Source of the DNA: Lytechinus pictus
Taxonomy: Eukaryota
Length of the DNA stretch: 60,000 nt
Assembly: GCF_037042905.1 (NCBI RefSeq)
Contig: NC_087245.1
Coordinates: 36,706,001 to 36,766,000, forward strand
Direction: 5' to 3'
Within the stretch, counting starts at the first letter, position 1. Every line of letters starts with the position of its first letter. The notes under the pieces are model-generated. The model did not search any database. It saw nothing but the letters and a program-made list of their open reading frames with translations, and was not told the DNA's origin. This document shows positions 2,973-52,231 of this stretch, one piece after another. Made by a program: the position numbers and the translations under genes.

Positions 2973-4667
2973 GGGGAGATTGGGGTTAGTTGGAACATTT
3001 TTGACAAAAATGGCTGTAAAATCCAAATGGATTTTATTCGAGAAACAATCAATATATCAGCTTAAAGCACATATCTAAGGGCTTCAAATGTACCCCATAA
3101 AATTTTTAACTCTATTGGGCCGTCTGCACCATCCCGAGTTTTCAAATTAGCGCGCTATTTCTGATCCGGCAAATTATCCCGATCTGAAAAATCTCGAGAT
3201 AGTTTGCAGTGGAGACGCAATTATCGCGCTAGTTCGTAGGATTAATCTCGAGATTGCAATCCCAAGTCAACTCGGGTTTATTTGCAAAATAGCGCGCTAT
3301 TTTACTAATTATCCCGCTAATTCGTAGGTGCAGACGCACTCGAGATTGGACTCGGGGTAATTTATTCATGACGTCAGTCCATAATGCTATTCGCTATTCC
3401 ACTTCCGCCTTGGTCAAAACATAAACACGAGCGAAAGTCAACTTTATACATGCGAATAGATATTATCGCGAATAGCGTTCATCAATTGCCCAACCAGCAA
3501 CAATGGTGTCCCACCAGTGAATGGATTTTGGGAGAGACCAGACCAAAGGGGGAGGCGCTCATAGTCAATAACAACACTGACAGCAGTGTCGTCTTATTCC
3601 TTCGCAAAATGTGAGCAAATAGCATTTCTTTCCTCCCTCTCTCTCTCTCTGTCGTTGCCTCCTTCTCCGCCATCATATTTAACGAAGAATACATCACTTC
3701 TTCACTCGCTGAGCTGAGAGGATTGTTGCATAACACCGGTCGAATTCGGCGAAAGTGCTAGTGAAAGGAGTATATTGCTTGCATATCGCGGGAAGTTATT
3801 CAAAAGCGCGGGCCGTTGAAACTCCAAGATCCGAAAGTGCGCATGCTCGGAATATCGGGCTTGTTGCCTCGCTCGAGCAGGAATCGCTCTTCTTGCGATG
3901 GTGCAGACGGGTTTCTTGAATCTCGAGATTAATCGCGAAGTGGGCCGATCGGGCTAAAATCTCGAGATTGAGCAAACTCGGGATGGTGCAGCACCGCCTT
4001 ATGATGGTTGCTGAAAAAAATCCACCTTGAGCAAGACCATCGCAAGCGTTCCAACTTACCCCATATACAGGGTCTTCAATTTTGTTCCAACTAACCCAAG
4101 AGGCCCATTTGACATTTATGAGCTTATAGTGCAAATAAGGGACTTCACCTTATTTTGTAGCTTGGTACAAGTGTCTATTATACCCCCACACTTGCCAACT
4201 TGACCTCTAAACTTCTCTGAGATAATAAAACATTTTTGAAAGAGAAAAAATTACTCAGAAGGTGAAAAAACAAAACTTCATTTCTAACTTCACCAGGCTT
4301 GTTGCACATGTGTTGTCTGTAATATGGTGGATGGCTGTTGATTATGGCAATAAAATGAGGGCAGTATTGCATAAGTTTATTTAAAGGCGTTAAAGAAAAT
4401 TACAATTTTTCATTGTACAAACCTTTTTAATTTACGATTTGAATTTCATTGATCAAAGATATACTTTAATTAACTATTTATTGCAGGGAACCCATACTAA
4501 CAAGCTTTGCTTTCCAGTGGGTTCCCTTTTTTCATTTCTGTATATTATATTTTTGTGTTTTGCTATACATTGTAACTTTTGTTAAATTTTGGAATGAAAA
4601 AGAATAAATGCAATCAATCAATCAATGTTTCAACTTACCCCGCGTTCTAACTAACCCCAATCTCCCC
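2973..4667. mobile_element. TA-flanked TIR element (Tc1/mariner-pogo type, non-autonomous)
   Basis: TA|GGGGAGATTGGGGTTAGTT...AACTAACCCCAATCTCCCC|TA; internal CCAACTWACCCC repeats; interrupted by the 3117-3998 element. Confidence 0.8.
3117..3998. mobile_element. Harbinger-like internally deleted element nested in the TA element
   Basis: Inverted termini sharing CTGCACCATCCCGAGTTT; CpG-rich with repeated ATCTCGAGAT and TGCAGACG subterminal motifs. Confidence 0.65.
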
Positions 4668-20868: not shown

Positions 20869-21639
20869 TTAAACTAGTTGACGCGTAGATAAGGACACAT
20901 TCATACAAACTTTGTGTGCATGTTGGGTGCAGTACACACTACGGTATATGTAGGATGCCTATGCTGCAGTTTGAAATTTCACACAAAACATATACATGTA
21001 CTGAATAACCCAACTGAGACTGTTCCCATTGCAACAAGACCAATTCACACAAAGTGGTTCTAGAAACCAGTTTCGGAGATGGTGATGAGAATGCAAGGAA
21101 GCGATCTTCTAAACTAGATTTCTAAACTGGTTTAAGGGAAACCAGTTCAAGAAAGCTGATGAGAATGGGATCTTACGCTGTCATTATAAACCCTGACATC
21201 TCGTCATTAGTGTCGCCCCTTGTTAAACTGAGTTATCTATTAACTTCAATGATAGGGACATTCAATCAAATGGGAATTGCTTCTAGAGGCTTAATCACAA
21301 GGTGCTTTCCCACTACCTAGCCATCCTAATATGACCTTTAGGTAAACATTTGGATGGGTGGCTCTAACAAGGAAATACAGTCATGTAAATTGAATTACTG
21401 CAGCTAAGCAAATCGCCTCTACATGCTTTTAAAAAGCAAATATCAGTTTACCCGTCTGAATGAATTTTAGGTTGATGTATTTTTCATGAAATATGAAACA
21501 GTATATTTCAGGATTGAAATGATCCATTGCAATAACAAAAGGATAGTATGTTTCCTACTTAATTACAATAATATTATCTGTGTGTTTGCTGCTGTAATGA
21601 TGAAAACAGATATTATGTCAAGAATGCTAAAACTTTCAC

Positions 21640-21929
21640 CATAATTATCACCATCATCATCCTCATCTCCATTATTTTAAAAACCATCATCATCATCCCA
21701 ATAATAATTATCATCAGCAGCATCATAATCTTCATCATTCTTTTCATCACCCTCGTCATCATCATCACTAACATCCTAATCATCAAAATCTTCATCATCA
21801 TTATCTTGAGTTCATCATCACCACCCTCGTCATCATAATCATCATCACCCTCATCATCATCATCATCATCACTAACATCCTAATCATCAAAATAATCATC
21901 ATCATCGTTATCTTGTGTTCATCATCATC

Positions 21930-21961
<32 letters not shown>

Positions 21962-21985
21962 CATCACCATCATCAACATCGACAA
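21640..21985. repeat. (CAT)n microsatellite
   Basis: Degenerate to perfect CAT triplets. Confidence 0.95.
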
Positions 21986-22082
21986 CACCACATAGTCAAC
22001 AGCCACTTTGACACAATACTTCAATTTACTGAAAAACACATCCACAGTACAAGTACACGTATATTTTGTATAAAACACTTAC

Positions 22083-22181
22083 CTGTAAGGGAATCTGTGG
22101 TGTGAGGAACGGACATCTCTTGATTGGTCACTTCCCAATGACCATTGGCCAAACCTTCCTTCTGTCCACCATCATGAGTAC
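22083..22181 (-). CDS. PIKFYVE: PIKfyve coding exon 12 (99 nt, phase 1-1)
   Basis: ttttttatcatgaacag|GTACTC...TTACAG|gtaagt; open frame GTHDGGQKEGLANGHWEVTNQEMSVPHTTDSLT; phase matches upstream exons. Confidence 0.7.
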
Positions 22182-22686
22182 CTGTTCATGATAAAAAATG
22201 AGAACTTAATACCAATACACATTTCTGTAAAAGTCTATAATTGCCATAATAACATATTCTTTTTAGTAGACATCTGCTGACATGTATACTACTATGTCAC
22301 ACTACATCCTAGAAATTAAGAAAGTTAGGATTCTCAGGGGTTTGGTCCAGCAGAGCTAAATGGTCTATAATGACAACTGAATTATGACATCTTATTTTGA
22401 ATCATGTAAAAGTTCAGTTTTCTTTCTTTATTTTGATACCTAATACGAAACAAAGGGGCCATGGACCAAGTAAAGTTTGAATCTTTTAAGGTCAATTTCA
22501 AGTTGCCCAGAATAATTGATCAAGAATTTCACTTTTTGTATACAACAACCTTCTGAAAGAGAGGTGTGGCTCATTAGCATTTTTTTTATTATTGATTATT
22601 TATATTTGTTATGAAAAAGGTGTAAACAATGAATTGAATAATTTGAGGCTTATAAGAGGGTAAATTCTTGCGAGGAAATAATTCAA

Positions 22687-23296
22687 AGGTCAAGTCCACC
22701 CCAGAAAAACATCGAAATGAAAAAATAGAGAAAAATCAAACAAGCATAACGCTGAAAGTTTCATAAAAAATCGGATGTAGAATAAGAAACTTATGACATT
22801 TTAAAGTTTTGCTTAATTTTCACATAACAGTTATATATGTACAACTCAGTGACATGCAAATGAGAAAGTCGATAATGTCCCTCACTCACTATATCTTTTG
22901 TTATTTATTGCTTGAATCATACAATATTTCATTTTTTACATATTTGACAATAAGGACCAACTTGATTGAACCATGTAGTATTAAACAATGCTAATTCCAC
23001 ATGTTCAGGGAGGAATTAATCTTTGTTTCACTTAACAATGAGGATAAAATTAGAATATTTCATATTTCACATAATGAAATACAAAAGAAATAGTGAGTGG
23101 ATGACGTACGTCATCAGTCTCCTCATTTGCATACTGAACAGGATGTAAATATAACTGTTTTGTGAAATTAAGCGAAACTTTAAAATGTCATAACTTTTTT
23201 ATTATACATCTGATTTTGATGAAATTTTCAGTGTTATGCTTGTTGGATTTTTCTCTTTTTATTGAAATCAACTTTTTGTTGAGGTGGACTTGTCCT
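22687..23296. mobile_element. Kolobok-like MITE
   Basis: AGGTCAAGTCCACCCC...GAGGTGGACTTGTCCT|TTAA. Confidence 0.8.
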
Positions 23297-23300
23297 TTAA

Positions 23301-28889: not shown

Positions 28890-29679
28890 CTGAAGGGAAA
28901 AGGGAGAAAGGGGAAATGTGAAATACCTTGGACTCATTAGCCTAAATTTAAAAAAGGTGGCGTTGTACAGAGGTACAAAGCCATCGACTATGGAGATTTC
29001 TTGTATTATTACACTTCATTCATGCATGAATTTAGCACCCTTTGCTAAAGGCACGCATTTATAATTGGACTCTTCGCAGTGAACGCGGTAAAATAAGCGT
29101 GATTATGTACACAAAATATACACAGTCCTTGGTTATGTACCAGGGTACAATTGAAACCACCATTGTGAATTTGGTTCATTATTACTATGCCCCATCTGCA
29201 CGAGTTAAAAAAGACGGGCACAGATTTCAGCTCATGGCACAATGCCTTTTAAACATTACAGTAGTACCTACAGGCAATTTCTAATCATCTATCAACTCAT
29301 CTAATAAGAATGGTAAGTAATGTTGGCATATTTTGGAATGGGTGGAATTGTAGTCTCATTTATTTCATTTTATCAACTAAAATGTTAAAGTCTGTCTCTT
29401 TCCCGATACAATGACACCCACTTTTTATGATTATGTAAATATGGGATGCAGAGTACACCCTAACAGTAACGTGAGGTAAAGTCAAAGGATATTTGTTAAA
29501 AATGAAATCTTTATTCCATTGAAAAACACTACATCTTTAATAAAAGCAATGAAAAATTCCTCACTAGTAAGTACGATGGTTGAGAACCCAATCAGAATTT
29601 TTGTATGAAAGATGAATTTTTGTATGAAAGATGAATTCACATTGAGGTAATTTTGAAACATTTGAGCAGCCATGATTAC

Positions 29680-29794
29680 CTCTCCTTGACAATAGAGGGC
29701 GTATCCATCAACGAAACCTTCCTGGTAGGATGACGTGACACACTTGATCCATTTAGCGTCTAGCAAGGCTTTACCAATGGCCACAGCTTGTACT
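29680..29794 (-). CDS. PIKFYVE: PIKfyve coding exon 8 (DEP domain, C-terminal part)
   Basis: RVQAVAIGKALLDAKWIKCV...FVDGYALY; AG/GT borders, phase 2-0. Confidence 0.92.
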
Positions 29795-29854
29795 CTGGTG
29801 GAATTTAATATCATTTAAAACATGCAAAATTAGAAAAAATAAAGCTATATCTCT

Positions 29855-32402: not shown

Positions 32403-32682
32403 TGGGGAAGTTGTACATGTGTGATATCACAGATCTTGGTCGCATTGCCAAGGAGAGGATCAACGTAGCATTAGTGATCTCAATAATCAAATGATCATAA
32501 CTTTCTTCTTATTCATTCAATCTTCCTTAACTTTATTGATATTTTTCTTTTTGATTTTTCTCTTTTACATGTATTCAACTTTCATCAAAGGGTTTCATTA
32601 ATAATAATAATAATAATAGTCAGTTCTCGTATAGCGCATAACACATTATGAATAAAAGGACTTGGATATCATTCTCCTTTAA
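32403..32682. mobile_element. Right half of a Kolobok-like MITE (family of 36450-37032), TIR interrupted by a short retroposed tail
   Basis: ATCACAGATCTTGGTCGCATTGCC shared with 36850; GGGTTTCATT[~75 nt]CTCCT|TTAA. Confidence 0.7.
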
Positions 32683-33204
32683 ATAAAAAGCTTCACTTTG
32701 TAATTCAAATATTTTGAATTTCAGCAGGATGGCACTTCAGTACCCTGCAGACTTGAAAATATCAGGTGATCAAAGTTCAGCATACTGTCTATTTTTATCA
32801 TTTTTATGAACTGTAAACCTGAGTGCATTTGATGCTCGAAGTTCAGCATACTTTCTATTTCAATTGATTCTCATATAATGAAAGTTTCATCATAGCAGCT
32901 GATATGATTTTCATCTTTAAAGAATAAACCCTAAAAATGCCAAATTCATATTCTAGGGCTAGAACTGCGTAGAATTAAGCGAAAATCAGACAATTCAGAC
33001 AAAGAAACATGAAGGATAGAAGATCTGGTGCCTGTTTCTTTAAGAGATACGATTGTAACTTTGCAATTATAGCAGCAACCATGGTAACAGGGCTCAGCAG
33101 CCAATCACGATCAAGGTTTCTATGGAAGTTACTAATTATAGGAAATGTGCAATACATGTACTTGCAAGTCTTTGTGAAAACAGGTCCCTGTGACCGATAC
33201 TTAC

Positions 33205-33400
33205 CTTGTTCTTCTCATATCTTCATCCATGAATCCTAAGAACTTCTTTCTTGGTGTCAGCACAGCATCCTCCGAACTTGGTGTGTTTGCCTCGGCAACG
33301 GTCATCAGGTCCTCCTGTAATGCTTTGAGGTCACCGGTGTAAGCCGACTGAGCATAGCTGAGCACAACCTTACAACAATAGGTACAGACCCGAAGGTTTC
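33205..33400 (-). CDS. PIKFYVE: PIKfyve coding exon 5 (end of FYVE domain)
   Basis: GNLRVCTYCCKVVLSYAQS...; atttccag|GA and AG|gtaagt; phase 1-2. Confidence 0.95.
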
Positions 33401-33586
33401 CTGGAAATTGCAGAAAAATAGAGAATATAGCAATATTGCTTTTAAGACAGCAAAAACATATCCATACTACATGTAGGTTTGTTTGGCCTTGCAGTCACCT
33501 GTGTAATCTGACTGAGTGTAGCTGAGCACGAATTTACAACAGTAGGTACAGACCCGAAGGTTTCCAGGATATTGCAGGTAAATAGA

Positions 33587-34694
33587 AACAAGTGGAATGC
33601 CTCTGGCCGTCTCACCTGCATCACGCGATTCAATATAGCAGCAGTGCTGATTTTGAAAACTACTATAACTCGCACAAGATGTTCAGTGATACTTGATTAC
33701 TCTTATTTCCACGTTTTATGAACTAGACCCATACACTTATAGAGATATGATGGTAATTCAACAAATACCCCCAACGTGGCCAAAGTTCATTGACCTTACA
33801 TGACCTTTGACCTTGATCATGTGACCTGAAACTCGCACAGGATGTTCAGTGATACTTGATTACTCTTATGTCCAAGTTTCAAGAGAAAGATCCATCAACT
33901 TTCCAAGTTATGATGGTAATTCAACAGATACCCCCATTATGGCCAAAGTTCATTGACCTTTGACCTTGGTCATGTGACCTAAAATGCGCAAAGGATGTTC
34001 AGTGATACTTCATTACTCTTATGTCCAAGTTTTATGAACTAGACCAACACACTTTCAAAGTTATGGCGGTAATTCAACAAATACCCCAATTTGACCAAAG
34101 TTCATTGACCCTAAATGACCTTTGACCTTGATCATGTGACCTGAAACTTGCACAGGATGTTCAGTAATACTTGATTACTATTATGTCTAAGTTTCATGAA
34201 TCAGATCCATAAACTTTTAAAGTTATGATGGTAAATCTACAGATACCCCCAATTCGGCCAAAGTTCATTGACCCTAAATGACCATTGACCTTGGTCATGT
34301 GACGTGAAACTCATGCAGGATGTTCAGTGATACTTGATTAACCTTATGTATAAGTTTCATGAACTAGGTCCATATATTTTCTAAGTTATGATGACATTTC
34401 AAAAACTTAACCTTAGGTTAAGATTTTGATGTTGATTCCCCCAACATGGTCTAAGTTCATTGACCCTAAATGACCATTGACCATGGTCATGTGACATGAA
34501 ACTCAGGCAGGATGTTCAGTAATACTTGATTAATCTTATGGCCAAGTTTCATGAACTAGGTCCATATACTTTCTAAGTTATGCTGTCATTTCAAAAACTT
34601 AACCTCAGGTTAAGATTTGGTGTTGACGCCGCCGCCGCCGCCGTCGGAAAAGCGGCGCCTATAGTCTCACTCTGCTATGCAGGTGAGACAAAAA
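33587..34694 (+). mobile_element. HINE-like family A, copy 2 (longest internal array)
   Basis: AACAAGTGGAATGCCTCTGG start, GTCTCACCTGCA / TGCAGGTGAGAC subterminal inverted repeats, ~6 tandem units, (GCC)n, 3' hairpin. Confidence 0.85.
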
Positions 34695-34741
34695 CAGTAA
34701 AACATTTTTAAAGATGAAGTTCAAGTCTAGTCACGATTTTG

Positions 34742-35037
34742 AATAATAATAGTAATAATAACATAGGTATATTTACCCAGGGAAGCCACTTTAGTTCTGA
34801 AAACTGTTCTCCCAGCGGGCCCTGCTATTATCATAACCCCGACTTTAGCTTGGCTGCATAGGCGCTCAAGCTTTCAAGGAATTTCTTCCTACCGGGTACC
34901 CATTCACCTCACCTGGGTTGAGTGCAGCACAATGTGGATAAATATCTTGCTGAAGGAAATTACGCCATGGCTGGGATTCGAACCCACGGCCCTCTGTTTC
35001 AAAGTCAGAAGACTAATCCACTGGGCCACAATGCTCC
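34742..35037 (-). mobile_element. Full-length tRNA-derived SINE
   Basis: Minus strand: A box TGGCCCAGTGG, B box GGTTCGAATCC, core, (ATT)n tail. Confidence 0.85.
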
Positions 35038-35631
35038 ACTTTGAATGGAGGTAGAAACTATCTTAAAGTGATTGTGATAGGTCAGTGTGAAAGTTGAAGA
35101 GTGAAATATTTAAAACTTTTTATTCAAATATGGATGAATAGAGACGACAAGTACTCTGAGAGAGGGGTCCAGGAAGCGACCAGACTTGAACCATGACAGA
35201 AGCCCCCACACCCATTCCTTTGCTGCTATGCATCTTCTTGTAGAGGTCTGAAGGGTTATTTTCCCTGGCAAAGATGGAAGCCTCCAGTCTGAATTCAGGA
35301 TTCAGAGGAAAATGTGGTGGTAAAAATTTATCCGCAAATTTCTAGGATTTGGATCAAATGTTAAACTTTTTGTAATTATGAAAAGTTGTTTACAAAGTAC
35401 CTCATAAGAACTGCAGTTTCTGAAAGGCCTTGGTAACCCCAACATGATATTCAATTAAAAACTATTGAAAGTCACATGCACATCACACAGGAAAGCATGT
35501 ATAGGACTACACAGGAGGAGGTGGGATAAAAAGAAAAGAAAGAGAAAGATGAGAACAAAAAGGGGAGAAGGAAGAAAAGACAAATAAGAAAGGAAAACAA
35601 GAAGACAACGAGAAAAGCATGTTCCACTCAC

Positions 35632-35821
35632 CAATGAATCCTATGAATTTGCCCGAAACTTCCTGATTGCAGCATCGGCTGCAGAAGATCTGTCCGCACA
35701 CCCGACAATGGTGGCGCCGTCTAAACGTAGTGAACTTTTCCCCGCAGTCATAGCACTCTTTACACTGACTGTCTGGCATCCAATACTGTCGCAGACTGCT
35801 GTCTGAATAGGTTGTAGGATC
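35632..35821 (-). CDS. PIKFYVE: PIKfyve coding exon 4 (FYVE zinc finger)
   Basis: LRQYWMPDSQCKECYDCGEKFTTFRRRHHCRVCGQIFCSRCCNQE: WxxD and RRHHCR motifs, closely matching the PIKfyve FYVE; ctacag| and |gtgagt. Confidence 0.97.
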
Positions 35822-36344
35822 CTGTAGAAAGCAAAATATATTTTCATATAATTTATTTTGGACTAGGACTAGACTTTTAATTAGGGCTCCATGAAATTGC
35901 ACTTTTGGGCATTTGATTTATCCCTTGCTGAATCATCATCACTTGGGAAACATCGTCCATTGTTAAAAAATTTCAAACAAAGTTCTGTGTTGGGTGCAGG
36001 CAAGTTGACAGCGGATAGTGTGGGGGCCCATTCACTAGACACAACACCCAAATAGAAATGCAACTGTTAATGGGATTGTCTCATTGTCGATACTTGGTGT
36101 GGTGCTAACTATAACGTGATTGATGTTATTTTCAAAGCTCAGAGTTAGTGTTGGAGCTCAGTTCAGCACATGATTCTTGAGATAAATCCCAAAACACCAA
36201 TGCCTACACAACAATCAACACCAACACCATTTATAACATCATCACCAATATCATTCATTGGAACACAAACATCAGGAAGAACAGCAGAAGTACATCATTA
36301 ATGTCATCACATATTAAATACCAACAATAATACCAATATATAAA

Positions 36345-37314
36345 AGGTAAAAGACAGTAGTTGCAGCAAACAACTATTTCATTAGAAAGTCTTTTAAATA
36401 AAGGTTAAATTGTCAAAATATTATCATACATCTAGATCTGGTACATTAAAGGAGAATGAAACCCTTGAAACTAGCTGAATCCATATCAAAGAGAAAAATC
36501 AAAGAAACATATTGTTGAAAGTTTGAGGAAGATTGAATGAATAATAAGAAAGTTATGAGCATTTGAATATTGAGATCACTAGTGCCATGTAGATCCTCCC
36601 ATCGGCAATGCGACCAAGATCTGTGATATCACACACGTACAACTCCCTCATTACTTTAGTACTTATTTCACTTATATTCTTACTTTTATAGAGTCTATCA
36701 CAAGGTTAGGTGTTTTCTTTATGAGAGGACAAGTACAGAGGTTTCACAACATTATATCATTGATGAATCGTTTGTCATATGATTAGAATGAGCAAAAAGA
36801 GATGTTTTGGGGTATATTTTCAGTGTCCGAATGGGAGAGTTGTACGTGTGTGACATCACAGATCTTGGTCGCATTGCCAATGGGAGGATCTCCATAGCAT
36901 TAGTGATCTCGACATTCAAATGCTCATAACTCTTTTATTGCTAGTCCTATTTTACTCAAAGTTTTGTTGATCTTATTCTTTGATTTTTCTGCTTTCACAA
37001 AAGCTAACTTGCTCCAAGAGTTTCATTCTCCTTTAATGTAAACTTATCTTTGTAAAATCATGAAATCTTAGCTGGAAATCAATAATTCTGATGATCACTA
37101 ATATGTGGAACAGTGTATTAATATTGCTTCGAAAAATAACTGACATTTGATGGAATTCCACGCTTATTTTGCTCATTTCTCAGAAATTACACATTTTCTT
37201 CCAGAGCTATTTGGCACATATTTTCATTTATACACAAACACTTTGGTCGTAATTTCATTGGATTCTGTTCAAACTCATTATGAGATCGTTACCACAAAGT
37301 CTGGTATGTATATT
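36345..37314. mobile_element. Older Kolobok-like element interrupted by the 36450-37032 element
   Basis: Degenerate termini AGGTAAAAGACAGTAGTTGCAGC / GTTACCACAAAGTCTGGTATGTATAT|TTAA. Confidence 0.45.
36450..37032. mobile_element. Kolobok-like MITE with long inverted arms
   Basis: TTAA|AGGAGAATGAAAC...GTTTCATTCTCCT|TTAA; arms inverted over ~200 bp. Confidence 0.85.
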
Positions 37315-38205: not shown

Positions 38206-38514
38206 GTAAATGATTAAAAATCCCCAAAACTTTCCCTAAACTTAGATCAATTAAGTGAATACAACAGAATCGTTACATTATAGAAGTAAATATCCATAGC
38301 CCTATCAATATTTATCACATTGATATAAAATATATTATGTAACCAACTCCATCAATTAACTATCCTAGGTTATAAACATGTACAGCATCAAACTGAAAAT
38401 TTTTGAATTTATATGATGTTGATTTTCATCATAACAATGTCAGAACAGTTCTTTATCAAGTTCAATTGTAGCAAGCCTCCAAAAGGGCCTAGTCACATAT
38501 AGTTCTAAAGGGAC

Positions 38515-39188
38515 AATTCTCGCTACCCCAAATAGCGATTTCGCCGAGATCCGGGAAAATCCCTGTAACGCGCATTGCATTATGGGATAGCTTTTCGGTA
38601 TTACAACTTCCTGTTCGGAAGTCCAATGCACTGTTTTGCCATTCAGAACAATAGTGCTGTCACGCACAACAACACAACGTCTCTTTCGCTCGGAAAGTTC
38701 GTGATCACAACCCTCTCTTTCACGATACAGTTTAACGGCCTTTTCTGCTAAAGTCATTAATTCTGCCCGACGCTTTCCATTGCACGGTATTCCTCTGTCA
38801 GTTAAGATTTTTTTCAGTTCCGAAACTGTTTTTTTATCCATTTTGTGGTCGACGAAAAATTGAACGGAATGAATGCTGTATATATTTAGCGTCTAGTCGA
38901 ATACGATCGTGAGGTCAGGCTGGTCTTTACTTTTTTATAACCAAATAAAAACATTTATAAAAATATAATTCAAATGGAAACAAAACTGACCTAATTAAAT
39001 AAAAAGTATTATAATTTGTACATGTTACGCTGATTGGCATCGATTCCAGCGTGGTGGAAAACTCAGTATCACGAACCTCGCGCGAGCATGACTCTGAACC
39101 GGAAGTGGTGATGACGACCCGACGGAGTGAAAATTATCTCGTATCGCACATTATGAGATTTTTGTTCCTATTTGGGGTAGCGAGAATT
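38515..39188 (-). mobile_element. TIR element carrying a truncated SAP-domain-like ORF (starts 38841)
   Basis: Perfect 21-bp TIR AATTCTCGCTACCCCAAATAG; ORF begins MDKKTVSELKKILTDRGIPCNGKRRAELMTLAEKA. Confidence 0.75.
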
Positions 39189-40283: not shown

Positions 40284-40410
40284 CTTTTCCCTTGCGGAAC
40301 CAGCCAGTAATCGAGAACCTTGATGTCTGGGTAGGATCATCACCTGGAGGCCTTGGAAACAAAGTGAGATTGCTCTCTTCCAGTTCTCTTCCTGATGATG
40401 ATGCAGCCAT
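40284..40410 (-). CDS. PIKFYVE: PIKfyve first coding exon (exon extends as 5' UTR to 40473)
   Basis: AACATGG start; MAASSSGRELEESNLTLFPRPPGDDPTQTSRFSITGWFRKGK; donor AAG|gtaagg; acceptor tttcttttattctacag at 40474. Confidence 0.8.
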
Positions 40411-41528
40411 GTTCTTGATTCTAATGCTACATCGGCATTCTCATAAGCAGGTATATATGTTCTGTGAATCAATCTGTAGAATAAAAGAAATCGATATAAG
40501 CTGCTAAAGTCTTCCGTGCTAAATTCCTCCATGAACTGCAGGCCTCAAGTAGCAGTAAGAGTACAGTTAACTTGATAAACTGACTGTAAGTGACGGACGG
40601 AGTGCAGCAGTTTGGTAAAAAACGTGATGTCTTGGAAGATTTATTGTATCATAAACAAACGGATGAGGAGCTGGGTGAAAGTTGGGGGAATGGTAAAAAA
40701 GACATTATCAATGACAACAAAGGGGATAAGTCTGGTTCAAAAGTAAAGATAAGAGTCTGCATTCGTGATAGTTTAGATTGGCTATAGCACTGTTACCTGG
40801 ACTGGTATTGACAAAGTAACCGTAATGGCAAAATTACCACAAAGGTAAGTTCTTTATGATATGTATGAAATGTTCCAGAGCCGTAAAGAATAATTCATTT
40901 TTATTGTAGACCAACTGGTAGTAAACCAAGTGAATCTATATGTATTACATTTCTAAGCACGGGGTGATTACCTTGGACGGAGTGTAGGTCAGAGTCACGA
41001 GATGAGGCCTGGGGAAAACCTCCTAGTCTCAGACCACATGACTCAGACTGAGGCCAAGGAAAGGCTGTGAAAATGAGGCCTCGTGGCTGGCCTCAACTCC
41101 GTCCCTGGTTATTACATCAGAAACTGGATTCATGAGCACAAGTTGAGGGAAAAACTCAATGTTTAAAGGTATTAATATATAGATTTCGTTTGCATTCATA
41201 TATTTTCCCATTATACATGTATATAGTGGGTTCTTCTTATTTTTTTTAAATCTGTCTCTGCATCTTCATTTTCTTCTTCCTCCTCTTCCCTCCTTCCTTT
41301 TTCTCCTCTTCTCCTTCTTTATTTTCCATTTTTCTTTCTTACCCTCTTCCTCCTCCTCCTTCTTTTCCTTCTTTCTCTCCTTCTGTTGTGTGCTGCAAAC
41401 AAAGACACTACAATGGAAAGACAGGACACTTCAGCGAATACATCAGTGTGCACAAATTCACTGAAGTGTCTAGTCTTCAGCTTGTAGTGTCTTCCATTGT
41501 CATCAAGTGTCCAAAACAAAATATGCCA

Positions 41529-44527
41529 CATAGAGATGTATACTAATTACGCTAGAGTGCGGAGTCGCCATAGGCGCGCGTACTTAACGTCTGTGATAGC
41601 GCGGAGCGTGGTCGGCCATTGCTCGATAGGTCTAGATTTGCAGAAGTACCCGGATGTACACATAGCTCGTGCGTTGTAACACTGTGAAAAAGGGATGCCG
41701 TCTCCGGCCTTTTTTCTTTAATAAAAGAATCCAACCTCATTACAATCGAAAATGTAAATGACAAATTGCATCTCAATAAACTATTAGTGTGATTACATGG
41801 GTATTCTGCTATTAATTAATTTGGCATATTTACCTGTGACTTCTCGAGATGAAATTCTCTTAAATAATTTGCATTTACCTGTTGGTTTATCATATTTATA
41901 GGCCTATAAAAATATTGATAATGTCACGTAAATGAATACATAAAAATAAAACATACAACCTACATTAATAGAAATATTGACAATTAATTAAAAAGGCAGT
42001 GAAATTAGCCCATCTTCTCCGCTGGATTTCCCTACCTTTAACTGCATCGCCCTTTTCCACATTTCCTTCATTCACGTCACTTGATGTTCTCATGACCAAT
42101 TTGTTTATGTTGGATATAATATTTTAATTTCTATATAGGCCTACTATATGTAACTTGCTTTAATTTGTATGAAATATATCATTTTTCTAAAGTACAATAA
42201 TTTGTATTTGAAAGTAAGTGTTTTGATCTTTGATTATGCGCTATTATAGTAGTATAAAGGGTAGATCATTATTGTTCTTGGCGTTACACCAGTGTACATT
42301 CTGAATTCCGAGGTTTTACAATAAATCCAGATCGGCTGTGAATAGTGACCAGCCGAATATTAGATTAAGATTTAAACCATATAGGATTTATACATATAAA
42401 GCTAAAAGATTTGAATTCAAATCATTTGAGATTTAAAAGTTAATCCTACAGATTAAAATAATATCAAAAATTTGGCTGGTTACCATTCACAGCCGATCTG
42501 GATTTTTTTTAAATCCTTGGAATTCAAAGTTTACGTGTTGATTTTTTTCTCATAGAAACATAATAAATTCCCAAAATCTGCAGGCCTATATGGCACCGAA
42601 AATGAAATATTGATTAAAAATGTAGAGAATGACTTTTTCCAACTATTTGCTTTTTAATTCCCTTCACTTTAAGTTAGAATTGTTTTTTTATTCGCTTTTT
42701 AGGGGGTGGGTGTAATTAAAGTGTCATATACGCACCCAATCAAAATTACTTTGACACACTGATCAAAATAAAATACAAGGGGCGCGACTGGATCCCTCCC
42801 TAAAGTGAATGAACATGACATAATAAATGAATGTGATTTTATGCACCCCCTGCTTCAAAATCATTCTGTGGATGTGCTAGCCAATGAAATTAAAAGAAGA
42901 AAAATAGAAGATCAAATTCAGTTATACTTTTAAAATGACAAAACTGAATATGCAAAACGCGTGTTTACCGGTTTATGACATATATAGTGTTTGGAAATCA
43001 TTGCCATAAAGTTAACACAGACACAATTAATTAACACAATTTCAAGACAAGGATGATCACTCAACAGCTGACAATTTGTAACATCTTATTCCAAGTATTT
43101 TCAGTTTTGCCATATTCAAACAATGATTATGTTTGGTTTTAGTACTCACAATTTTGCAACCGTTTCTATAATGATAAGTTTATTAAGTTTGCATTTATGA
43201 ATCTCTTTCATGATATTGTTATCAATTGGTTTTATACACTCAGTTTTAGTAATAATCCTCAGTCTTCCCGCCCTTTTTCTTCTCTTCTCCTCCTTATTCC
43301 TCTATACTTCTTATTATTCTATCCTTGATTTGTTCACATAATATTGGTCCAATCATTATAGGAAACAAACGCCGGCCATAATTATATCAACATAATATTT
43401 CAGCCGGTTTGCCGATCTGCATAGTATTCAGCCAGAGTGAATCAAGTTTAGACTTTCCAGAAAATCAAAGTCAAATTGTTTTATGTTGCATAAAACACGC
43501 ATTGTAATTTGTTTACTCTCCGAAATATTGAAATGTTTGCAAGTCAATAATACACTGTAAACATCCAACACAAGTTTACCCCATTGCTAGGCCTCCTGTA
43601 CATTGCAAAATTGTACGACTGCATGCGCACATTTGATATATATGCAAATTTTGCTGTCAACAAACTTTTCTACATTGCTCGCAAGTATAAAGTAATCAAT
43701 ATGATCGGATGGTTGACAGCATTGGAAATTTAAATCATAAACTTATCAATTAATTGGACCAATGCATAAATCATTTTCAAATATTATCAATAAAAGTCAT
43801 TTTATGACTCACGAGTTATTGTGATGTTGGTTATATCGACGTTTAAAACCATGGGGAAAGGAGTTAGGCCCTTTTCGATATATGATTTTTATGTGTAGAT
43901 CTATATGGAAAATACATTATAAAAATTGTCAAAAGTAAAGAAATACTGAAATTATCAGCAATCAGCATCATATTAAATAGGAAACTATACTTGAAAAAAT
44001 GCAGTCGTGTTTTTTTTTTGATACCTTGTGTCTCGGATGCATCAGACACTGTGAATTTCTGAGGTCAACTTGAACACCATGTTAAATTTGCAAGACCTAG
44101 AACGATATGCCTAGGCCTGCATGTTATTTTTAATATTCATCCCTTCCAAATCATTAGAAAATAGAAGTCATATAATAATACATCGAAATGTTATGACCAA
44201 AGCAAAAACAATTGGGGATGCATTGGACTGTATTATTTGTAGGATATATCATGCCCTATATAGGCAGTTTTATCCTCAGTTTTGATGGATTCTTTGTTAA
44301 TTTGAACTTTAATCCAGTGCGATTTACAATTTTGCTTTTCCATTTGCTTTCACGCTCATATGTCATCTTTTTTGTCCTGTTCTGTGCTCATCTGTATACA
44401 TGCCCCATAGGTACAGTACGCGTATTGCAGGCTGCAAAGACCTATCGAGTAATGGCGGCCGGTCTCCGCGTAATCACAGCGATTTGATGAAGTACGCCCT
44501 CTAGCGTTATTAGTATATATCTCTATG
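41529..44527. mobile_element. P-element-like non-autonomous transposon, 3.0 kb
   Basis: TIR CATAGAGATRTATACTAATWACGCTAGAG with weaker inverted similarity for ~110 bp; perfect 8-bp TSD ATATGCCA (41521-41528, 44528-44535). Confidence 0.85.
42294..42534. mobile_element. MITE nested in the P-like element
   Basis: ~60-bp inverted arms including AAATCCAGATCGGCTGTGAAT. Confidence 0.7.
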
Positions 44528-45917: not shown

Positions 45918-46739
45918 TAGACAATAAACTTGGGGGAATTCAGGTCACAAAATCTATGTTCAGCATTCTCAGTTCCTGTAATCGTTATCTATATATGTCC
46001 CGCAGTGGGAAGTGAAGAACAAAAAAACTGTCATCATAAACCAAGACAATCTCAATTTATCAAGACCGCGCCTCTACTGATGAAAGCAGCATTTGGAGGG
46101 GGAAACTGAGGGGGAAAAAATATAGCTCTACAAGTGCCTAGGCTTTAACCTTGCATTAGCAAATTATCTTACTCTTCAAAAGCCTCTAGAAAAGTATGGT
46201 AAACGCATATATCATATATCATAACCTTGTTCAAGTGGGTAAACGTAGCAATACACAGTTCAAGATTTGAAGAAATTTGGAGAATGCACCAGTACAATGA
46301 AATTTAAAATTGCAATTAAATGAAAAATAGACGAATTGGTCGATCTTTAGATCTAGAGCTAAGTTGGTTAGACATTTTTAGGAAAATTCATTTCATGAAA
46401 AGAAAATTTAGAAGTAACAAATAGAACTAAAGCGGGCACTTTAGTCTTTATTCATGATTTCACAAACTCAGTCACTCTCAACTTGTCTCATGTCATATCA
46501 TGACTTGGCTCACTCAATCTCACCTCTCGTTCAGGTGCAGGCCTCAGCATCTTCACTAAATCATAATTTTTGCATGATCCAGAATCAGATTTCAATGGAG
46601 TTTTGCATTGACATACAACAACAATACTTTGAAAACAATAGCCAAATTTGTACGCCCAGGCCAAGCTTGAAGAACCGGAAACGCAAGGTTCGCATCCACG
46701 GTCACGCCGAGGCCACGGCTCCGCATGCCAGCACACCTG

Positions 46740-47041
46740 GGGCCGATTGCTCGATAGGGTCTTTCCAAGGACCGTCTTTTATGATGCGCTATAAGCGGGG
46801 TGTTTCTGAAATTTATGTTTAAAAAATAAAATTTGTTAGCTTGCTTTTAAATCAAATTTTATACAATTTCATGAGATATCACATCATTTTATAAACAAAT
46901 ACCGGTATTTTGTTTATTTTTAACGGATGAATAAAATATGTTTGCAGATAATTTATTTGAAATGTGTTTCACATGGCGCATCATACAAAATGGGCGACAC
47001 GAAAGACGGTCCTTGCAAAGACCCTTTCGTGCAATCGGCCC
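46740..47041. mobile_element. Harbinger-like MITE
   Basis: CTG|GGGCCGATTGC...GCAATCGGCCC|CTG; ~40-bp imperfect TIRs. Confidence 0.8.
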
Positions 47042-47605
47042 CTGCCCTGGCCGCGGCAGGTCAATTATGCCGAAACGCTCGGCACTTGTCCCACCACCGT
47101 ACGCACGGTACCGGTACGGTACACCCTAACCCAGAGAGCTCCCGCCAGAAGCTTACCATGTATTTGACCATATTCACCGGACTAGGGTGATTTATGGTCT
47201 AAATATTTCTCCAAATGAATTGTGAAAACAGAAAGTATACAATTACCACGATTATATGGATGAAGGTCTAACGAGTGGCAGTTTCCTGACATCTGGGCAC
47301 AGACTGGAACCTCAAAAAAACGAAAAGTTCTCTCCTCTACCCCAGTCTCGATCGGCCATTTTGTTACGATTTTTAACAAAAATGGCCGATCGAAACGGGG
47401 GTAGAACTAGTAGAAGGAGAGAACTTTTCGTTTTTTTGAGGTTCCAGTCTGTGCCCAGATGTCAGGAAACTGCCACTCGTTAGACCTTCATCCATATAAT
47501 CGTGGTAATTGTATACTTTCTGTTTTCACAATTCATTTGGATAAATATTTAGACCATAAATCACCCTAGTCCGGTGAATATGGTCAAATACACGGTAAGC
47601 TTCAG

Positions 47606-50600
47606 GGCCCGTATTCCATAAACGAGATAAGCTTTTTGCTTAAGTCTTAGCAATTTGTCTTAGCATTTTGCTTGTCTAAGAAATCTTCCCTAACGATATT
47701 CTATAAACTTTAAGACATTTGTCTCAAGTCAGACGATATGGCTAAGCCAAAGTCTCAAAGTCAAATTCTATGACCTTCTAAACTGCTGCAGGGGTAACTG
47801 CAACAAAATAGCAAAAATGTCATTGAAGTTGTTTTTTCTTAACAAGTTTGATTTTATTGAAACTAATTACAACTATTGTAGTAAAAGAAGAGCATTCATC
47901 ACCCATATATGGTAAGAATTCTTTATTCAGATTATTCTATATTTTGTTAATTATACCAAAACATTTCAATCCCAAACCGAGTGACTTGCACAGTTTTTTA
48001 TGTATCAGTCCCATTCATTACTTTTCATGTATTGTTTGTCAAAATCTAAATGGAATAGGGTAGATTCCTCTCGACATCTTTATTCTACTTCAGTTGAAGT
48101 AGACCTAGGGTCTAAGGGAAAACATTTGTAACTTTTGAGACTAGTCTTGGGTCTAACATTAGGCCTAGATCTAGCCTAGGCCCAAGATCTACAACTAATA
48201 ATAATATCCGTCTGTTTGGAGGAGAATTGAACATTGTTTTTACTTTTTACTTTCCTGAAGGCTGAAGCAAAACGTAACTTTGTTAGTCTAGTGCCGTAGT
48301 GGAGCAACTGAGACTGAAGCTACATATAGGCCTAGATCTAACGATAGACCTATATTAGTATTGGTCTAGGCCTAGAACATGCAGGACTTAGCCTGGCTTA
48401 GCCTTAAGACAGGGATAGATCTAGGCTATCTAGATCTACATGTAGGTCTAGAATAGATCTGACTTAGACCAAAAGCTTCAGTCTCCGACTGTATTTTGGT
48501 TGTTCCGCTATTTTAGTATTACGAGTACGACACTAAACAGTCTAACGTTACGTTGGCCTAGTCTCACCAATGTGATATGACAGTAAATGTCAGAAACTTT
48601 TAAATAAATCCCCAGAAACGACGGTTATTCCTGTCAACAGTGCTAGATATATCGCTATGCATTGCTTGCCAACTATGCCTAAAGTTAGATCTAGTCCTAG
48701 TAGTAGTCTAGACATCTATCTAGATCTACTCCTGCTTTAGGTCCATCTGTTTGTTTGGAGTTTTTATTTTATACATTTTGAGGACTTGTTTAGATCTAGG
48801 TTTCCAGGACTAGAAAACAGGCCTAAACCTAGACCAACACTGGCAACAGCTCAGTCTAGACTAGGGCCTAGATTTATATAAGAATTTAGATCTAAGGCCT
48901 AGGCGGCCTAGCCTGTGCTTTCTTCTATTCATTCTAGATTTTATTTCTAGCCTATCCGGTAGCCCTAACGTTAGGACTTGCTGATCTAGTCTACTGTTTG
49001 ATCTAGAAATCTCTAACCTAGGCCTAGATCTAGACTAAATGACTTACTCACTTAGACTAAAAGTTAGACCCTATCTAGATCTAGAACTATACCAATCTAG
49101 GTGTACATAGGGTCATAGTAATAGGTCTAGATCTAGAGACTTGTAGACTCTATCTCAATGTAGATTCTAGATCTAAAAATAGTAAATGTAGGCGCTAGAT
49201 CTAGTCTAGTTCTACTCATCTAACGTTAGGCCTGAGAAAGGAAGTAGGCTAGGGATCTAGCATTGGATTATTTCTAGGACTAAAGAATCTTGATCTAGGC
49301 TTAGATATAAACTAGGGGCTGTAGTTCGAAATCTTGAGGTCTAGCCCCCCCCCCCCCCCAAAAAAAAAAAAAAAAAAAAAAACTAGAACTAAGCCCTCAG
49401 CTACATGTAGTTCTCTATGTAGCCAAACAAAAGTTAGCATTGACCATTGTCTTAATCTTTTTTGGCGTATACATGTAGTTATCATACAAACACATATTTT
49501 GATGAATGAGAAAATGTGTCTTGCAGATTATTTTAGCTCAAAACCTACATTTCATGGACATATAGGCCAATGTCATAAAATGAAGAAGTAGTTCAATACA
49601 CATCATGCTGTTTACACATTTATTGATCTGATATGCTGTTACCATGGCAACAAATTTTCAAATATATGACTTGCAGATCTACACCTCAAAATCAATGTGT
49701 GAGCCAACTTTTATAAGAATTGGTAAAACTAATAAAGGGATTCAAACCACAAGATTTTCACCTAATTTCTTTATAAATATAATATGTTGTTACCATAGCA
49801 ACACGAATTCTGATACAGGCAAAAGTATATCTTAGACATCTTCAACTCAAGACTATTGTGTGCGCCAACATTTTAGGAGAATTGACCAGTTGAAAACTGA
49901 TAAAGTAATTCAAATTACAAGATTTTCATCTAGTTTTTGTTATTTTATTTGTTGCCATGGCAACGCAATTTTTTATAAAGGCATAAAATATACTTTCCAC
50001 ATCTTCACATCAAGACTAACGTTTGTGCCACATTTCATGAGAATTGATTAAAAACTGAAGAAGTCGTTGGAACTGCAAGATTTTTACATAATTTTTGCCC
50101 TAATATACCGTTACCATGGCAACACAATTTCCGACACATGCGAAAATGTGTCTTGCACATCTTTACCTCAAGACTTATGTCTGTGGCAAACATCATGAGA
50201 AGTGGTTGAAATATTGTAAACTTGTGAAAACCACAAATTTTTCACCTAATTTTCGTTATTTAATATGCTGTTACCATGCCAACGTAATTTTTGTATATAG
50301 CCATAAAATATGTTTTGCACATCTTCACATCAAGACTAATGTTTGTGCCACATTTCATGAGAATTGGTTAAAAACTGAGGAAGTAGTTGGAATAGCAAGA
50401 TTTATACATAATTTTTGCCATAATATACTGTTACCATGGCAACACAATTTCCGACACATGCAAAATTGTGTCTTGCACATCTTTTCCTCAAATCCAATGT
50501 GTGAGCCAACTTTCATGAGAATTGGTAGAAAACCGATGAAGTAATTTAAATTTTAAATTTTGGCCATAATATACTGTTACCATGGCAACACAATTTCTGA

Positions 50601-51051
50601 AAAAGCAAAAAAAAAATTCTTACACCTCCTTACCTTAAGACCAATGTGTGTTCCAAATTTCATGAAAATCGGTTAAAAACTGAGGAAGTAGCTCGAAATG
50701 CAATATAGGTATAAATTCTTTAAAAAAAATTGGCCATGATTTGTTGGATTTAAACGTTGTCTTAAAGCAATTAAGACAACTCACAACTGTCTTAAAGTTA
50801 GGGCAAAATTCTTAGCCATGTAGAATTTATGAAATACAGACTCTGCATATTTAAGAAAAGTTACTTAGCCATTCATCCTAAATCTGTCTTAGTCGCGCAA
50901 AAATTCTTAGCCAAATTCTTAGACAAAATTCTTAGCCAATTCTTTATGGAATACGCGTTTTGGCTAAGAATTTTGTCTTGGACAGAAAACTAAGACAAAA
51001 TGCTTAGATTTTTGACTTAAGCATGCTTATCTCGTTTATGGAATACGGGCC
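47606..51051. mobile_element. Harbinger-like element, 3.4 kb, inserted in the foldback arm
   Basis: Perfect TIR GGCCCGTATTCCATAAACGAGATAAGC; flanked by CAG and CTG at a site that reads CTG in the uninterrupted arm. Confidence 0.85.
49381..50740 (+). mobile_element. HINE-like family C tandem array, 3' end not recognised
   Basis: Begins AACTAGAA after an A-run; ~160-bp units with GTTACCATGGCAAC and TTTCATGAGAATTGG. Confidence 0.7.
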
Positions 51052-52231
51052 CTGGGCTCCCGCCCGCTGCGCGGGCGGGAGCTCTCTGGGTTAGGTACAC
51101 CCGTGCAAAACACCGGGCCAGCGCCAGTGCCCAGTCGATCGCAACTTCGCGAGCCAAGGCCCGGCCCAGTCAAAGGCCGAGAATCACGCATGGAAAAATC
51201 ACACATTTTGGGCCTATCCGTCCTAAGAAAAAACTGAATTATATTAACAGGTATTAAATGAATCACATAAATTATGATATTAACCGGAGTCTAACTTACA
51301 TTCCTCGAAGGAGGTCGGAGGAGTGGTCGTGCACGGTCAGCTGATTAAAATAAAGGTAAACACGAACTGAAATTACCGGTATAAATAAAAACTGTTCTTA
51401 TTAAGGTGGTCTCAAAACATTTTTTATCTGACGATATGTACATATACCTCCAAAAGTGGGTCAATCATTTGTTTATCAATATGGAACATTTCAGGGTTTT
51501 TTCCTCGGAATAAACACATATACCGTACTTTAATTTGATTGATAGTCAATTTCAAAAGATATCATATCGAAATAAGCGTTTATCATATTCTAATCAGTTT
51601 TTAAATCATGAAAAATATTAGTTTCTATGATATCGATGCAAGCGTGAAAACCGAGCTGAGCACACTTTTGAATAAGGCCATGCGTTTTATGTTGGGCCCG
51701 CAAATAGGAGGGCATCGTTACATTTGCACGACAAGCACAGAAATGATTAATGGTATAAAACTTGAAATACATGTGCTACATGGGTATATTTAATTGGTAT
51801 CACATTAAAGGGAATCTTTATACCAATTACTTTAAAGAAAAAGAAATACATGAGATTACTTCATTTACCAGTAATTAGCAATTATGTAACATCAATTGGC
51901 CATTTTGGCATGGTGGTAGACGAGGGGGGCATGACGAGGGGAGCATGAATTTTTCTTTCATTAAGATACTAAATATATAACATCACAATACCTAAATATG
52001 TTATAGTTTGTGGGCTCACTCGCTTATTCTTTAGTCATAAGTGGGTCAAAATTGATCTTTTAAGTTTAAAGGATACCTAATTAAGCTAATTAGTATAACT
52101 AATTGATGTATATCATGAAATTAATACGATTGAAATTGCGGCTGTTTGATGTAAAGAAAATGAGGACAGATAAAATATAGTTGTGGGTTTACAACTACAA
52201 TAAAATTTACTGCTGTAAAAATTTCAAAAGG

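What the first reader, a model, noticed from the sequence alone, without database searches (positions are those of the whole stretch)
48100..49390. 1.3-kb tract built from chained TA-linked palindromes (TAGATCTA, TAGGCCTA, TAACGTTA, TACATGTA)
Seen: not a tandem repeat, yet saturated with CTAG and overlapping 8-mers. Examples: TA-GGCC-TA-GATC-TA (48160-48173), TA-GATC-TA-CATG-TA-GGTC-TA (48431-48450), TA-GGCC-TA-GATC-TA again near 48327 and 49019, TA-ACGT-TA-GGCC near 49221. Inference: serial insertion/excision at TAs that each event regenerates would produce exactly these chains. The tract may record a transposition hotspot, possibly germline-open chromatin near the PIKfyve 5' end.
Basis: partly seen in the sequence, partly recalled or inferred. 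Interest (0 to 1): 0.7.

Follow-up and report, generated by a model that had tools for sequence, protein, structure and literature searches.

The report
Stacked transposon scars riding a transposon
A 1.3-kb stretch of sea-urchin DNA is packed with chained six-letter units that look like scars left when several kinds of jumping gene repeatedly landed on and left the same spots, but the stretch is older than its present place and was most likely carried next to the PIKfyve gene inside another jumping element.

Summary
The tract is real: TAGATCTA 13, TAGGCCTA 4, TAACGTTA 3, TACATGTA 1, against 0.14, 0.09, 0.01 and 0.02 expected. TAs sit on a 6-base lattice. A simulation of serial +6 insertion at TA reproduces most chain statistics; random motif gain and slippage do not. 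Centre-trimmed +5 variants are also enriched. Three between-copy differences of about six letters, aligned by eye, end at TA. Candidate donors exist: a TA|GG..CC|TA element (2973-4667) and a high-copy TA|GAC..GTC|TA element inside the tract. The tract is the interior of a 3.45-kb non-coding, CWG-flanked element. Its words have decayed about 16% while its insertion ends are perfect. A related species holds 84-93% identical copies, apparently multi-copy. The same vocabulary chains in unrelated eukaryote-like contigs. Best reading: Tc1/mariner-type excision scars of several families, stacked at an old hotspot and then carried here. No excision was shown and no transposase identified.

The parts
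48100..49390 (.). Chain tract: 21 exact TA-XXXX-TA palindromic words (GATC 13, GGCC 4, ACGT 3, CATG 1), 19 one-mismatch words, lattice chains of up to five units (48321, 48674). CpG o/e 0.38.
49391..49480 (.). Short extension of the tract with two more TACATGTA (49402, 49470)
48467..48635 (.). Degenerate copy of a very high-copy short element with ends TA|GAC...GTC|TA (right TA reads AA here). Unclassified, no long inverted ends. Candidate donor of the GA..TC word.
   Evidence: family reads stop aligning at 48465 and 48635, loose letters after 48635 begin with TA in 3 runs, 48636 A>T, summed depth up to 347,000 in run X10
47606..51051 (.). Host element, 3.45 kb, non-coding. Ends GGCCCG.../...CGGGCC between CAG (47603-05) and CTG (51052-54). 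30 of 30 complementary including those triplets, about 81% over 60 nt. NuwaI/PHIS-like.
   Evidence: CWG target from PMC4482050 passages
47606..48099 (.). Left arm of the host element; 44 TA, no vocabulary word
49345..49382 (.). C15/A23 homopolymer run
49481..50700 (.). 158-bp tandem array (5.8 copies, 71%) inside the host element; 94 TA, no vocabulary word
50701..51051 (.). Right arm of the host element; 32 TA, no vocabulary word
47149..47602 (.). 454-bp palindromic MITE, 192-nt arms 98% complementary, CAG on both sides
47125..51095 (.). Outer small hairpin element split by the inserts; 22 of 22 complementary ends and a perfect 5-bp duplication TACAC (47120-24, 51096-100)
46740..47041 (.). 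MITE with GGGCC ends and CTG on both sides (NuwaI-type target)
51300..51400 (-). Putative non-coding exon 1 of the PIKfyve-like gene. Donor GTAAGT at 51299-51294; native flanks CpG o/e 1.16-1.29 against 0.55 in the gene body. Inferred from sequence only.
40284..40473 (-). Putative first coding exon of the PIKfyve-like gene (ATG at 40410). FYVE (35507-35914) and a partial DEP match (29485-29814) lie downstream. The gene name rests on the FYVE+DEP order and recall.
2973..4667 (.). 1.7-kb element with TA|GGGGAG...CTCCCC|TA ends; candidate donor of the GG..CC word. No transposase shown.

Best explanation
The chains are stacked excision scars of TA-targeting cut-and-paste transposons of the Tc1/mariner type, from at least three or four families with different terminal dinucleotides (GA, GG, AC, CA). 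An element inserts at TA, duplicates it, excises with a 2-base stagger, and repair keeps two bases of each end, giving TA-XY-Y'X'-TA (+6). The new TA is a target again, so mixed chains grow. Point mutation then blurs them. About 45-55 such events with 20-25% later mutation give this tract. The scars built up mostly before the segment reached this locus. The segment became the interior of a non-autonomous CWG-target (NuwaI-like) element before organisms A and C diverged, and a copy landed recently about 200 bases inside the putative first intron of the PIKfyve-like gene. Shown: word counts, lattice, simulation fit, homologous interiors elsewhere, perfect ends. Inferred: excision as the cause, donor identity, capture from a host hotspot, and the position of exon 1.
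For: (1) P(TA at +6 | TA) is 0.355 in the tract against 0.10 elsewhere, and +12 is 0.20. TA-N4-TA is 55 against 18.9 expected, while spacers of 0-3, 5 and 6 are not in excess. (2) Observed: 21 words, 4 adjacent pairs, longest chain 5. Serial TA insertion gave 22.6-24.0 words, 4.8-4.9 pairs, longest 4.0-4.4. Motif gain gave 0.3 pairs (0 of 300 runs reached 4). Slippage gave 11 pairs, 10 of them identical-word. (3) Centre-trimmed words TAGACTA/TAGTCTA number 7 against 1.1 (0 of 3000 shuffles), and TAGCCTA/TAGGCTA 4 against 0.8 (P=0.008). Three of the four other one-base deletions of TAGATCTA are absent. (4) By-eye alignment of letters printed shows three differences of about 6 letters bounded by TA: an X5 second copy has an extra GATCTA-type unit near 49281; most X10 depth lacks 6 letters at 48804; X10 contigs have about 6 extra letters with TA-GAC-TA near 48390. 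(5) TA-flanked elements with GG..CC and GA..TC ends exist in this window. (6) Next to a query that did not contain them, TACATGTA (35 against 0.9) and TACCGGTA (14 against 0.2) are enriched in 54 metagenome loci; 61 of 87 adjacent pairs there are mixed. (7) PMC3520976 calls taCATGta a rare Tc1 footprint; bioRxiv 659086 gives 2-base staggers for Tc1/Tc3. (8) Age: word decay about 0.16 per base against 0 mismatches in 57 paired end positions. (9) Organism C holds pieces about 84-93% identical across arm and tract, two spanning the arm-tract junction, three versions at 48933-49298, and variant depths of 2,500-6,400 against 40-105 for long contigs.
Against: No excision or filled/empty site pair was shown directly, and no transposase is tied to any word. 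The common Tc3 scars are +4 (TACATA/TATGTA), yet +4 words are not enriched here (TAGATA/TATCTA 5 against 2.9; TAGGTA/TACCTA 0). PMC3520976 calls the +6 form rare. Identical-word neighbours are 0 of 4 where the model expects about 2 (joint P=0.04). Simulation parameters were chosen by me to match the word count. Only 12 of 152 indel rows were printed; of the 10 printed in the tract one is 6 letters and the rest are 1-4. The by-eye alignments rest on short anchors. The GAC..GTC element has no long inverted ends, so it is not a typical Tc1/mariner MITE. The different left flank in X5 is one contig and 37 letters, and could be another insertion at the same CAG. Summed contig depth is not a copy number.
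Confidence: 0.62

Rival explanations
1. Repair palindromes without a transposon donor: breaks at TA are sealed as hairpins or repaired by a short template switch, leaving a small inverted duplication.
For: It also predicts TA-bounded short palindromes and centre-variable junctions. No donor excision was shown, and +4 scars are missing.
Against: It predicts words set by the local flank, so many of the 16 octamers and various lengths. Only 4 of 16 occur in the tract, and only four are strongly enriched in the 54 other loci. Flanks of the 13 TAGATCTA are varied.
Confidence: 0.14
2. In-place hotspot at the PIKfyve 5' end: the scars built up here because germline chromatin is open, and other copies descend from this one.
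For: The element sits in a CpG-rich region about 200 bases from a putative exon 1, with four stacked elements and 3 of the window's 6 TACCGGTA. The X5 flank could be another insertion at this same site.
Against: The ends of the element and of the older element around it are perfect (0 of 57 mismatches; P=0.002 at 10% divergence) while the words are about 16% decayed. The arms carry 0 words in 170 TAs, and the native flanks carry no TAGATCTA. Homologous interiors exist in organism C.
Confidence: 0.07
3. A selected cluster of protein-binding sites (regulatory element or transposase sub-terminal sites).
For: TACATGTA is bound by PsMyb37 in Phytophthora (PMC11134190). TCTAGA is a testis promoter element in Oikopleura (PMC6389100). 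Raw RNA reads show one-strand bias at 48711-48946.
Against: Independent motif gain gave 0 of 300 runs with 4 adjacent pairs. Four different words share TAs on one lattice, and they decay freely. Copies appear to differ in which words they carry (by eye).
Confidence: 0.08
4. A decayed (TAGATC)n microsatellite expanded by slippage.
For: Long (TAGATC)n-like arrays exist in other organisms (L067, L070/L071). GATC is the main word. The TAACGTTA at 48543 can also be read as a 5-base tandem duplication.
Against: The longest perfect run is two units. None of 4 adjacent exact pairs is identical-word, against 10 of 11 in the slippage model. TRF finds nothing.
Confidence: 0.06

Closest known systems
Tc1/Tc3 excision footprints (TACATGTA, TACATA/TATGTA) and Sleeping Beauty footprints (TACAGTA/TACTGTA)
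   Same: TA on both sides, core equal to element-end bases, variation at the centre. PMC3520976 (passages) cites Eide and Anderson 1988 for taCATGta, which I did not see. bioRxiv 10.1101/659086 (passages) gives the staggers and the common scars.
   Different: Those are single experimental scars, mostly +4 or +5. Here +6 dominates, several words are stacked in chains at about 16 exact words per kb, and the main words (GATC, GGCC, ACGT) are not the Tc1 word.
NuwaI group of PHIS transposons (PMC4482050, passages)
   Same: Short inverted ends starting with G, CWG on both sides, animal host. A neighbouring MITE has CTG on both sides.
   Different: No transposase or Myb frame. The two flanking triplets differ (CAG, CTG). 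The interior is a composite of tract and satellite.
Promoter words TACATGTA (Phytophthora; PMC3520976, PMC11134190) and TCTAGA (Oikopleura testis; PMC6389100)
   Same: Same or overlapping palindromes, abundant in non-coding DNA near genes (passages).
   Different: They are read as single binding sites, one of them position-fixed. In the passages seen there are no mixed chains, and PMC3520976 rejects a footprint origin for its motif.
Pack-type elements that carry captured host DNA (recalled: Pack-MULEs)
   Same: Non-autonomous element with an interior unlike its arms and a sharp boundary near 48060-48100.
   Different: No host donor locus or gene fragment was identified, and no genome was available.

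Membership tests
Tc1/mariner excision footprints | Flanked by TA on both sides | tested here: met
   21 of 31 palindromic octamers in the tract have TA outside; lattice at +6
Tc1/mariner excision footprints | Core equals the terminal bases of a TA-targeting element of the same genome | tested here: inconclusive
   GG..CC element at 2973-4667 and GA..TC element at 48467-48635; no AC..GT donor found in the window; neither element shown to excise
Tc1/mariner excision footprints | Net insertion against an empty TA in a related copy | tested here: inconclusive
   Three TA-bounded differences of about 6 letters, aligned by eye; only 12 of 152 indel rows printed
Tc1/mariner excision footprints | Canonical short (+4 or +5) scars of the same ends accompany the long form | tested here: inconclusive
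   +5 forms enriched (7 against 1.1; 4 against 0.8); +4 forms not enriched
Tc1/mariner excision footprints | A cognate DD[D/E] transposase | not testable with these tools
   No genome held; no such frame in the host element
NuwaI (PHIS) element, for the 3.45-kb host | Terminal inverted repeats | tested here: met
   30 of 30 complementary including the flanking triplets
NuwaI (PHIS) element, for the 3.45-kb host | CWG target-site duplication | tested here: inconclusive
   CAG left and CTG right: both CWG but not identical; no empty site seen
NuwaI (PHIS) element, for the 3.45-kb host | Transposase and Myb/SANT frames (autonomous members) | tested here: not met
   Only short frames; the longest (146 aa, in the satellite) has no Pfam hit. 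At most a non-autonomous derivative.
Tandem repeat or microsatellite | Head-to-tail copies of one unit | tested here: not met
   No TRF array in the tract; longest perfect hexamer run is two units

The most novel reading that the evidence does not exclude
The tract is a portable, self-reinforcing landing pad. Each scar adds a TA in a palindromic context that TA-targeting transposases prefer, so the segment keeps collecting scars wherever its host element carries it. The hints are copies that appear to differ in TA-bounded units although the arm-tract junction predates the species split, and arms with no scars. Such chains, seen in several eukaryote-like lineages and almost never in prokaryote genomes (106 metagenome hits, many of them fungal-type repeats, against 5), would be a readable record of which transposon families were active in the germline and where. 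They might also be the raw source of promoter words such as TACATGTA.
Probability: 0.2. Interest if true: 0.78.

Novelty: new variant of a known kind. Interest (0 to 1): 0.48.

Why it matters
If the reading holds, cut-and-paste transposons that leave again can rewrite a quarter of a non-coding segment, six bases at a time, with no element left to annotate. The mix of words would count past visits family by family. It would give a mutational origin to abundant palindromic words that are now read only as binding sites. The tract also shows that such a record can be moved by another element, so its position next to a gene start says nothing about that gene's chromatin. The base phenomenon (scattered TACATGTA scars) was already noted several times in this scan. 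What this case adds is the multi-family chain, a candidate donor inside the tract, and the age mismatch between scars and site.

Tried and rejected
No genome is held, so genome-wide density against gene starts or open chromatin, and alignment of all element copies, could not be done. Run search: no RNA holder listed; shares under 0.2 that I did not lay are not used. RNA lay (X23): 90% of laid reads run on into unlike sequence, mostly the short high-copy element. First-mate + excess at 48711-48946 (11-22 against 0.6-1.9) fits minus-strand RNA, but depth is near zero at 47885-48002, so expression is left open. The library type of X1 is not on record, so its depth of 114-146 over the tract is not used as evidence of open chromatin. 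A 6-letter gap in 48180-48238 in X1 and X5 follows from depth arithmetic (9.46 against 10.5; 102.5 against 114.1) but was not printed, and the bin holds a (TAA)n run: not diagnostic. Removing hexamers does not restore the short element's family sequence: the copy has a 39-letter replacement and a deletion besides TAACGT (by eye). Rfam: 4 matches, all far below gathering score. Searches for the element ends: 0 in metagenomes, 0 in viral contigs, 0 in prokaryote genomes. Four viral hits are a chance 24-base match inside a phage gene. Chain pattern: 0 in viral contigs. None of the 106 metagenome loci is homologous to the tract. Promoter-side test: of 9 Pfam-confirmed frames within about 400 bases of a chain, 8 have it on their 3' side and 1 on its 5' side (I scanned 50 of 97 candidate frames and 15 had hits). 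That gives no support for a 5' rule, but introns and the other neighbour were not resolved. A DDE_1 frame 1.3 kb from a chain in L026 showed no visible link to it. Reading the short element's ends as TAG..CTA (Academ-like, recalled) was dropped because the flanks show no 3-4 base duplication. RIP-like TA gain explains the AT-rich fungal-type clusters that I dropped but is not known in animals (recalled). Literature searches (listings only unless cited) found no paper on chains of mixed TA-flanked words. The library lacks most subscription papers, and I opened no supplements.

Full report
Verdict. The tract is real and most likely a stack of transposon excision scars. It did not form where it now lies. 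It is the interior of a 3.45-kb non-coding element that arrived recently near the 5' end of a PIKfyve-like gene. Earlier notes of this scan call the genome a sea urchin.

1. Observation. All quoted strings are in place. Counts in 48100-49390 against 2000 dinucleotide shuffles: TAGATCTA 13 against 0.14, TAGGCCTA 4 against 0.09, TAACGTTA 3 against 0.01, TACATGTA 1 against 0.02, CTAG 49 against 16. Only 4 of 16 TA-flanked palindromic octamers occur. It is not a tandem repeat. Exact words cover 12% of the tract, and 27% with one mismatch allowed.

2. Internal structure. TAs lie on a 6-base lattice: P(TA at +6) is 0.355 against 0.10 elsewhere, and +12 is 0.20. Only the 4-base spacer is in excess (55 against 18.9). 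Chains mix words, for example CATA-GGCC-GATC-ACGA-GACC at 48321. I simulated three processes, 300 runs each. Serial insertion at a random TA matched word number, adjacency (4.8 against 4 seen), +6 and +12 rates and chain length, but expected about two identical-word pairs where none is seen (joint P=0.04). Independent motif gain never reached 4 adjacent pairs. Slippage gave 11 pairs, nearly all identical-word. I set the parameters to fit the word count, so this is a consistency test. Words lacking one central base are enriched (TAGACTA/TAGTCTA 7 against 1.1; TAGCCTA/TAGGCTA 4 against 0.8), as expected if the centre is a repair junction. The +4 scars that dominate for Tc3 are not enriched (bioRxiv 659086, passages).

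3. Surroundings. The tract lies in an element with 30 of 30 complementary ends (47603-47632, 51025-51054), CAG on the left and CTG on the right. CWG is the NuwaI target (PMC4482050, passages). The element consists of left arm, tract, a C/A run, a 158-bp array and right arm; arms and array hold 170 TAs and no word. A 454-bp palindromic MITE adjoins it. Both split a small hairpin element with 22 of 22 ends and a perfect TACAC duplication. The native flanks are CpG-rich (o/e 1.29 and 1.16, against 0.55 in the gene body), and a minus-strand donor at 51299 is the best exon-1 candidate among five GTRAGT sites (inference). The gene has FYVE and a partial DEP match below Pfam's cut-off; the name PIKfyve rests on that order and on recall.

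4. Other copies. I laid 4 of the 24 listed runs on 47590-49344. X5 has a contig over 47603-48632 with 3 substitutions and 15 gap letters, whose 37 letters left of the element are not the window's flank. That means another site, or another insertion at the same CAG. X5 and X1 also hold pieces of a second version, about 88-93% identical. Organism C (X10) has pieces about 84-93% identical over arm and tract, two across the arm-tract junction, three versions at 48933-49298, and variants at depths of thousands against 40-105 for long contigs. That suggests tens of copies, though depth is not a copy number. So the CTAG-rich interior is shared and older than the species split. Word decay is about 0.16 per base, while 57 paired end positions show no mismatch (P=0.002 at 10% divergence). 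The scars therefore predate this insertion.

5. Do the words come and go? Only 12 of 152 indel rows were printed; of 10 in the tract one is 6 letters (48804, absent from most X10 depth) and the others 1-4. By eye, loose ends add an extra GATCTA-type unit near 49281 in the X5 second copy, about six extra letters with TA-GAC-TA near 48390 in X10, and ACGT in place of GGCGGCC after the TA near 48899 in X5. These rest on short anchors: suggestive, not proof.

6. Candidate donors. Inside the tract, 48467-48635 is a decayed copy of a very abundant short element. Family reads start at the TA at 48465, end at 48635 and continue with TA, so the ends are TA|GAC..GTC|TA. Two bases from each end give TAGATCTA. 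It lacks long inverted ends and is unclassified. A 1.7-kb TA|GG..CC|TA element lies at 2973-4667. No AC..GT donor was seen. Neither link is demonstrated.

7. Elsewhere. A three-word pattern hit 106 metagenome loci, 0 viral contigs and 5 loci in prokaryote genomes. The 106 collapse to 69 clusters. I dropped 15 (AT-rich RIP-like repeats and tandem arrays) and kept 54. In their flanks, with the match excluded, two words not in the query are enriched: TACATGTA 35 against 0.9 and TACCGGTA 14 against 0.2. TAACGTTA is absent there. Of 87 adjacent pairs, 61 are mixed. Neighbouring frames include Pol epsilon, KRR1, eIF2D and a gamma-tubulin complex protein, so several loci look eukaryotic; chains lie between frames, mostly on the 3' side. 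In the window outside the element, TACATGTA is 14 against 1.2 and TACCGGTA 6 against 0.3, three of the latter in the native 5' region.

8. Comparison with what is known. It works like Tc1/Tc3 footprints (PMC3520976 passages citing Eide and Anderson). Membership is not proven: donor, empty-site pairs and transposase remain open, and +4 scars are missing. The same words are published as binding sites (PMC11134190 and PMC6389100, passages). Nine searches found no paper on mixed chains; the library is partial and I opened no supplements. Earlier agents of this scan reached the scar reading for TACATGTA in this and other genomes. Those are leads, not support.

9. Scores. Best explanation 0.62. Novelty: new variant of a known kind. 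Interest 0.48. Boldest reading not excluded: a portable, self-reinforcing landing pad (probability 0.2, interest 0.78).

Noticed in passing
window 46650-47124 and 51096-51420: The CpG-rich putative promoter/first intron of the PIKfyve-like gene is split by a 3.97-kb nest of three elements, with a fourth beside it. It holds 3 of the window's 6 TACCGGTA. If the insert is polymorphic it may affect expression.
   Followed up: partly
window 48467-48635: Very high-copy short element, abundant in RNA reads, with TA|GAC..GTC|TA ends and no long inverted repeats; X10 contigs show head-to-tail neighbours. Class unknown.
   Followed up: partly
window 49481-50700: 158-bp array with GTTGCCATGGCAAC-like palindromes (X-box-like, recalled), resembling the arms in earlier finding e1-7880699.
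   Followed up: no
window 2973-4667: 1.7-kb TA-flanked element with a CpG-rich interior carrying several TCTCGAGA words; no coding frame identified.
   Followed up: partly
window 38443-38892 (-): 150-aa frame with a SAP domain inside a PIKfyve intron, probably a transposon piece.
   Followed up: no
window 6802-7853 (-) and 18171-19385 (+): Intronless frames that look like seven-transmembrane receptors; the first is split between two frames. Judged by eye, not scanned.
   Followed up: no
window 15150-15751, 20265-23300: TTAA-flanked elements with AGG..CCT ends (Kolobok-like, recalled); further inverted-end elements at 32409-36644 and 41529-44527.
   Followed up: no
L008, L030, L033, L048, L049, L053, L061, L069, L077: GC-rich, intron-poor eukaryote-like contigs whose short intergenic spaces are dense chains of TAGATCTA, TACATGTA, TACCGGTA and TAGGCCTA; possibly a compact genome well suited to test the scar model.
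   Followed up: partly
L067, L070/L071: Kilobase arrays of degenerate TAGATC-type hexamers; possibly chains expanded by slippage, or coding repeats.
   Followed up: no
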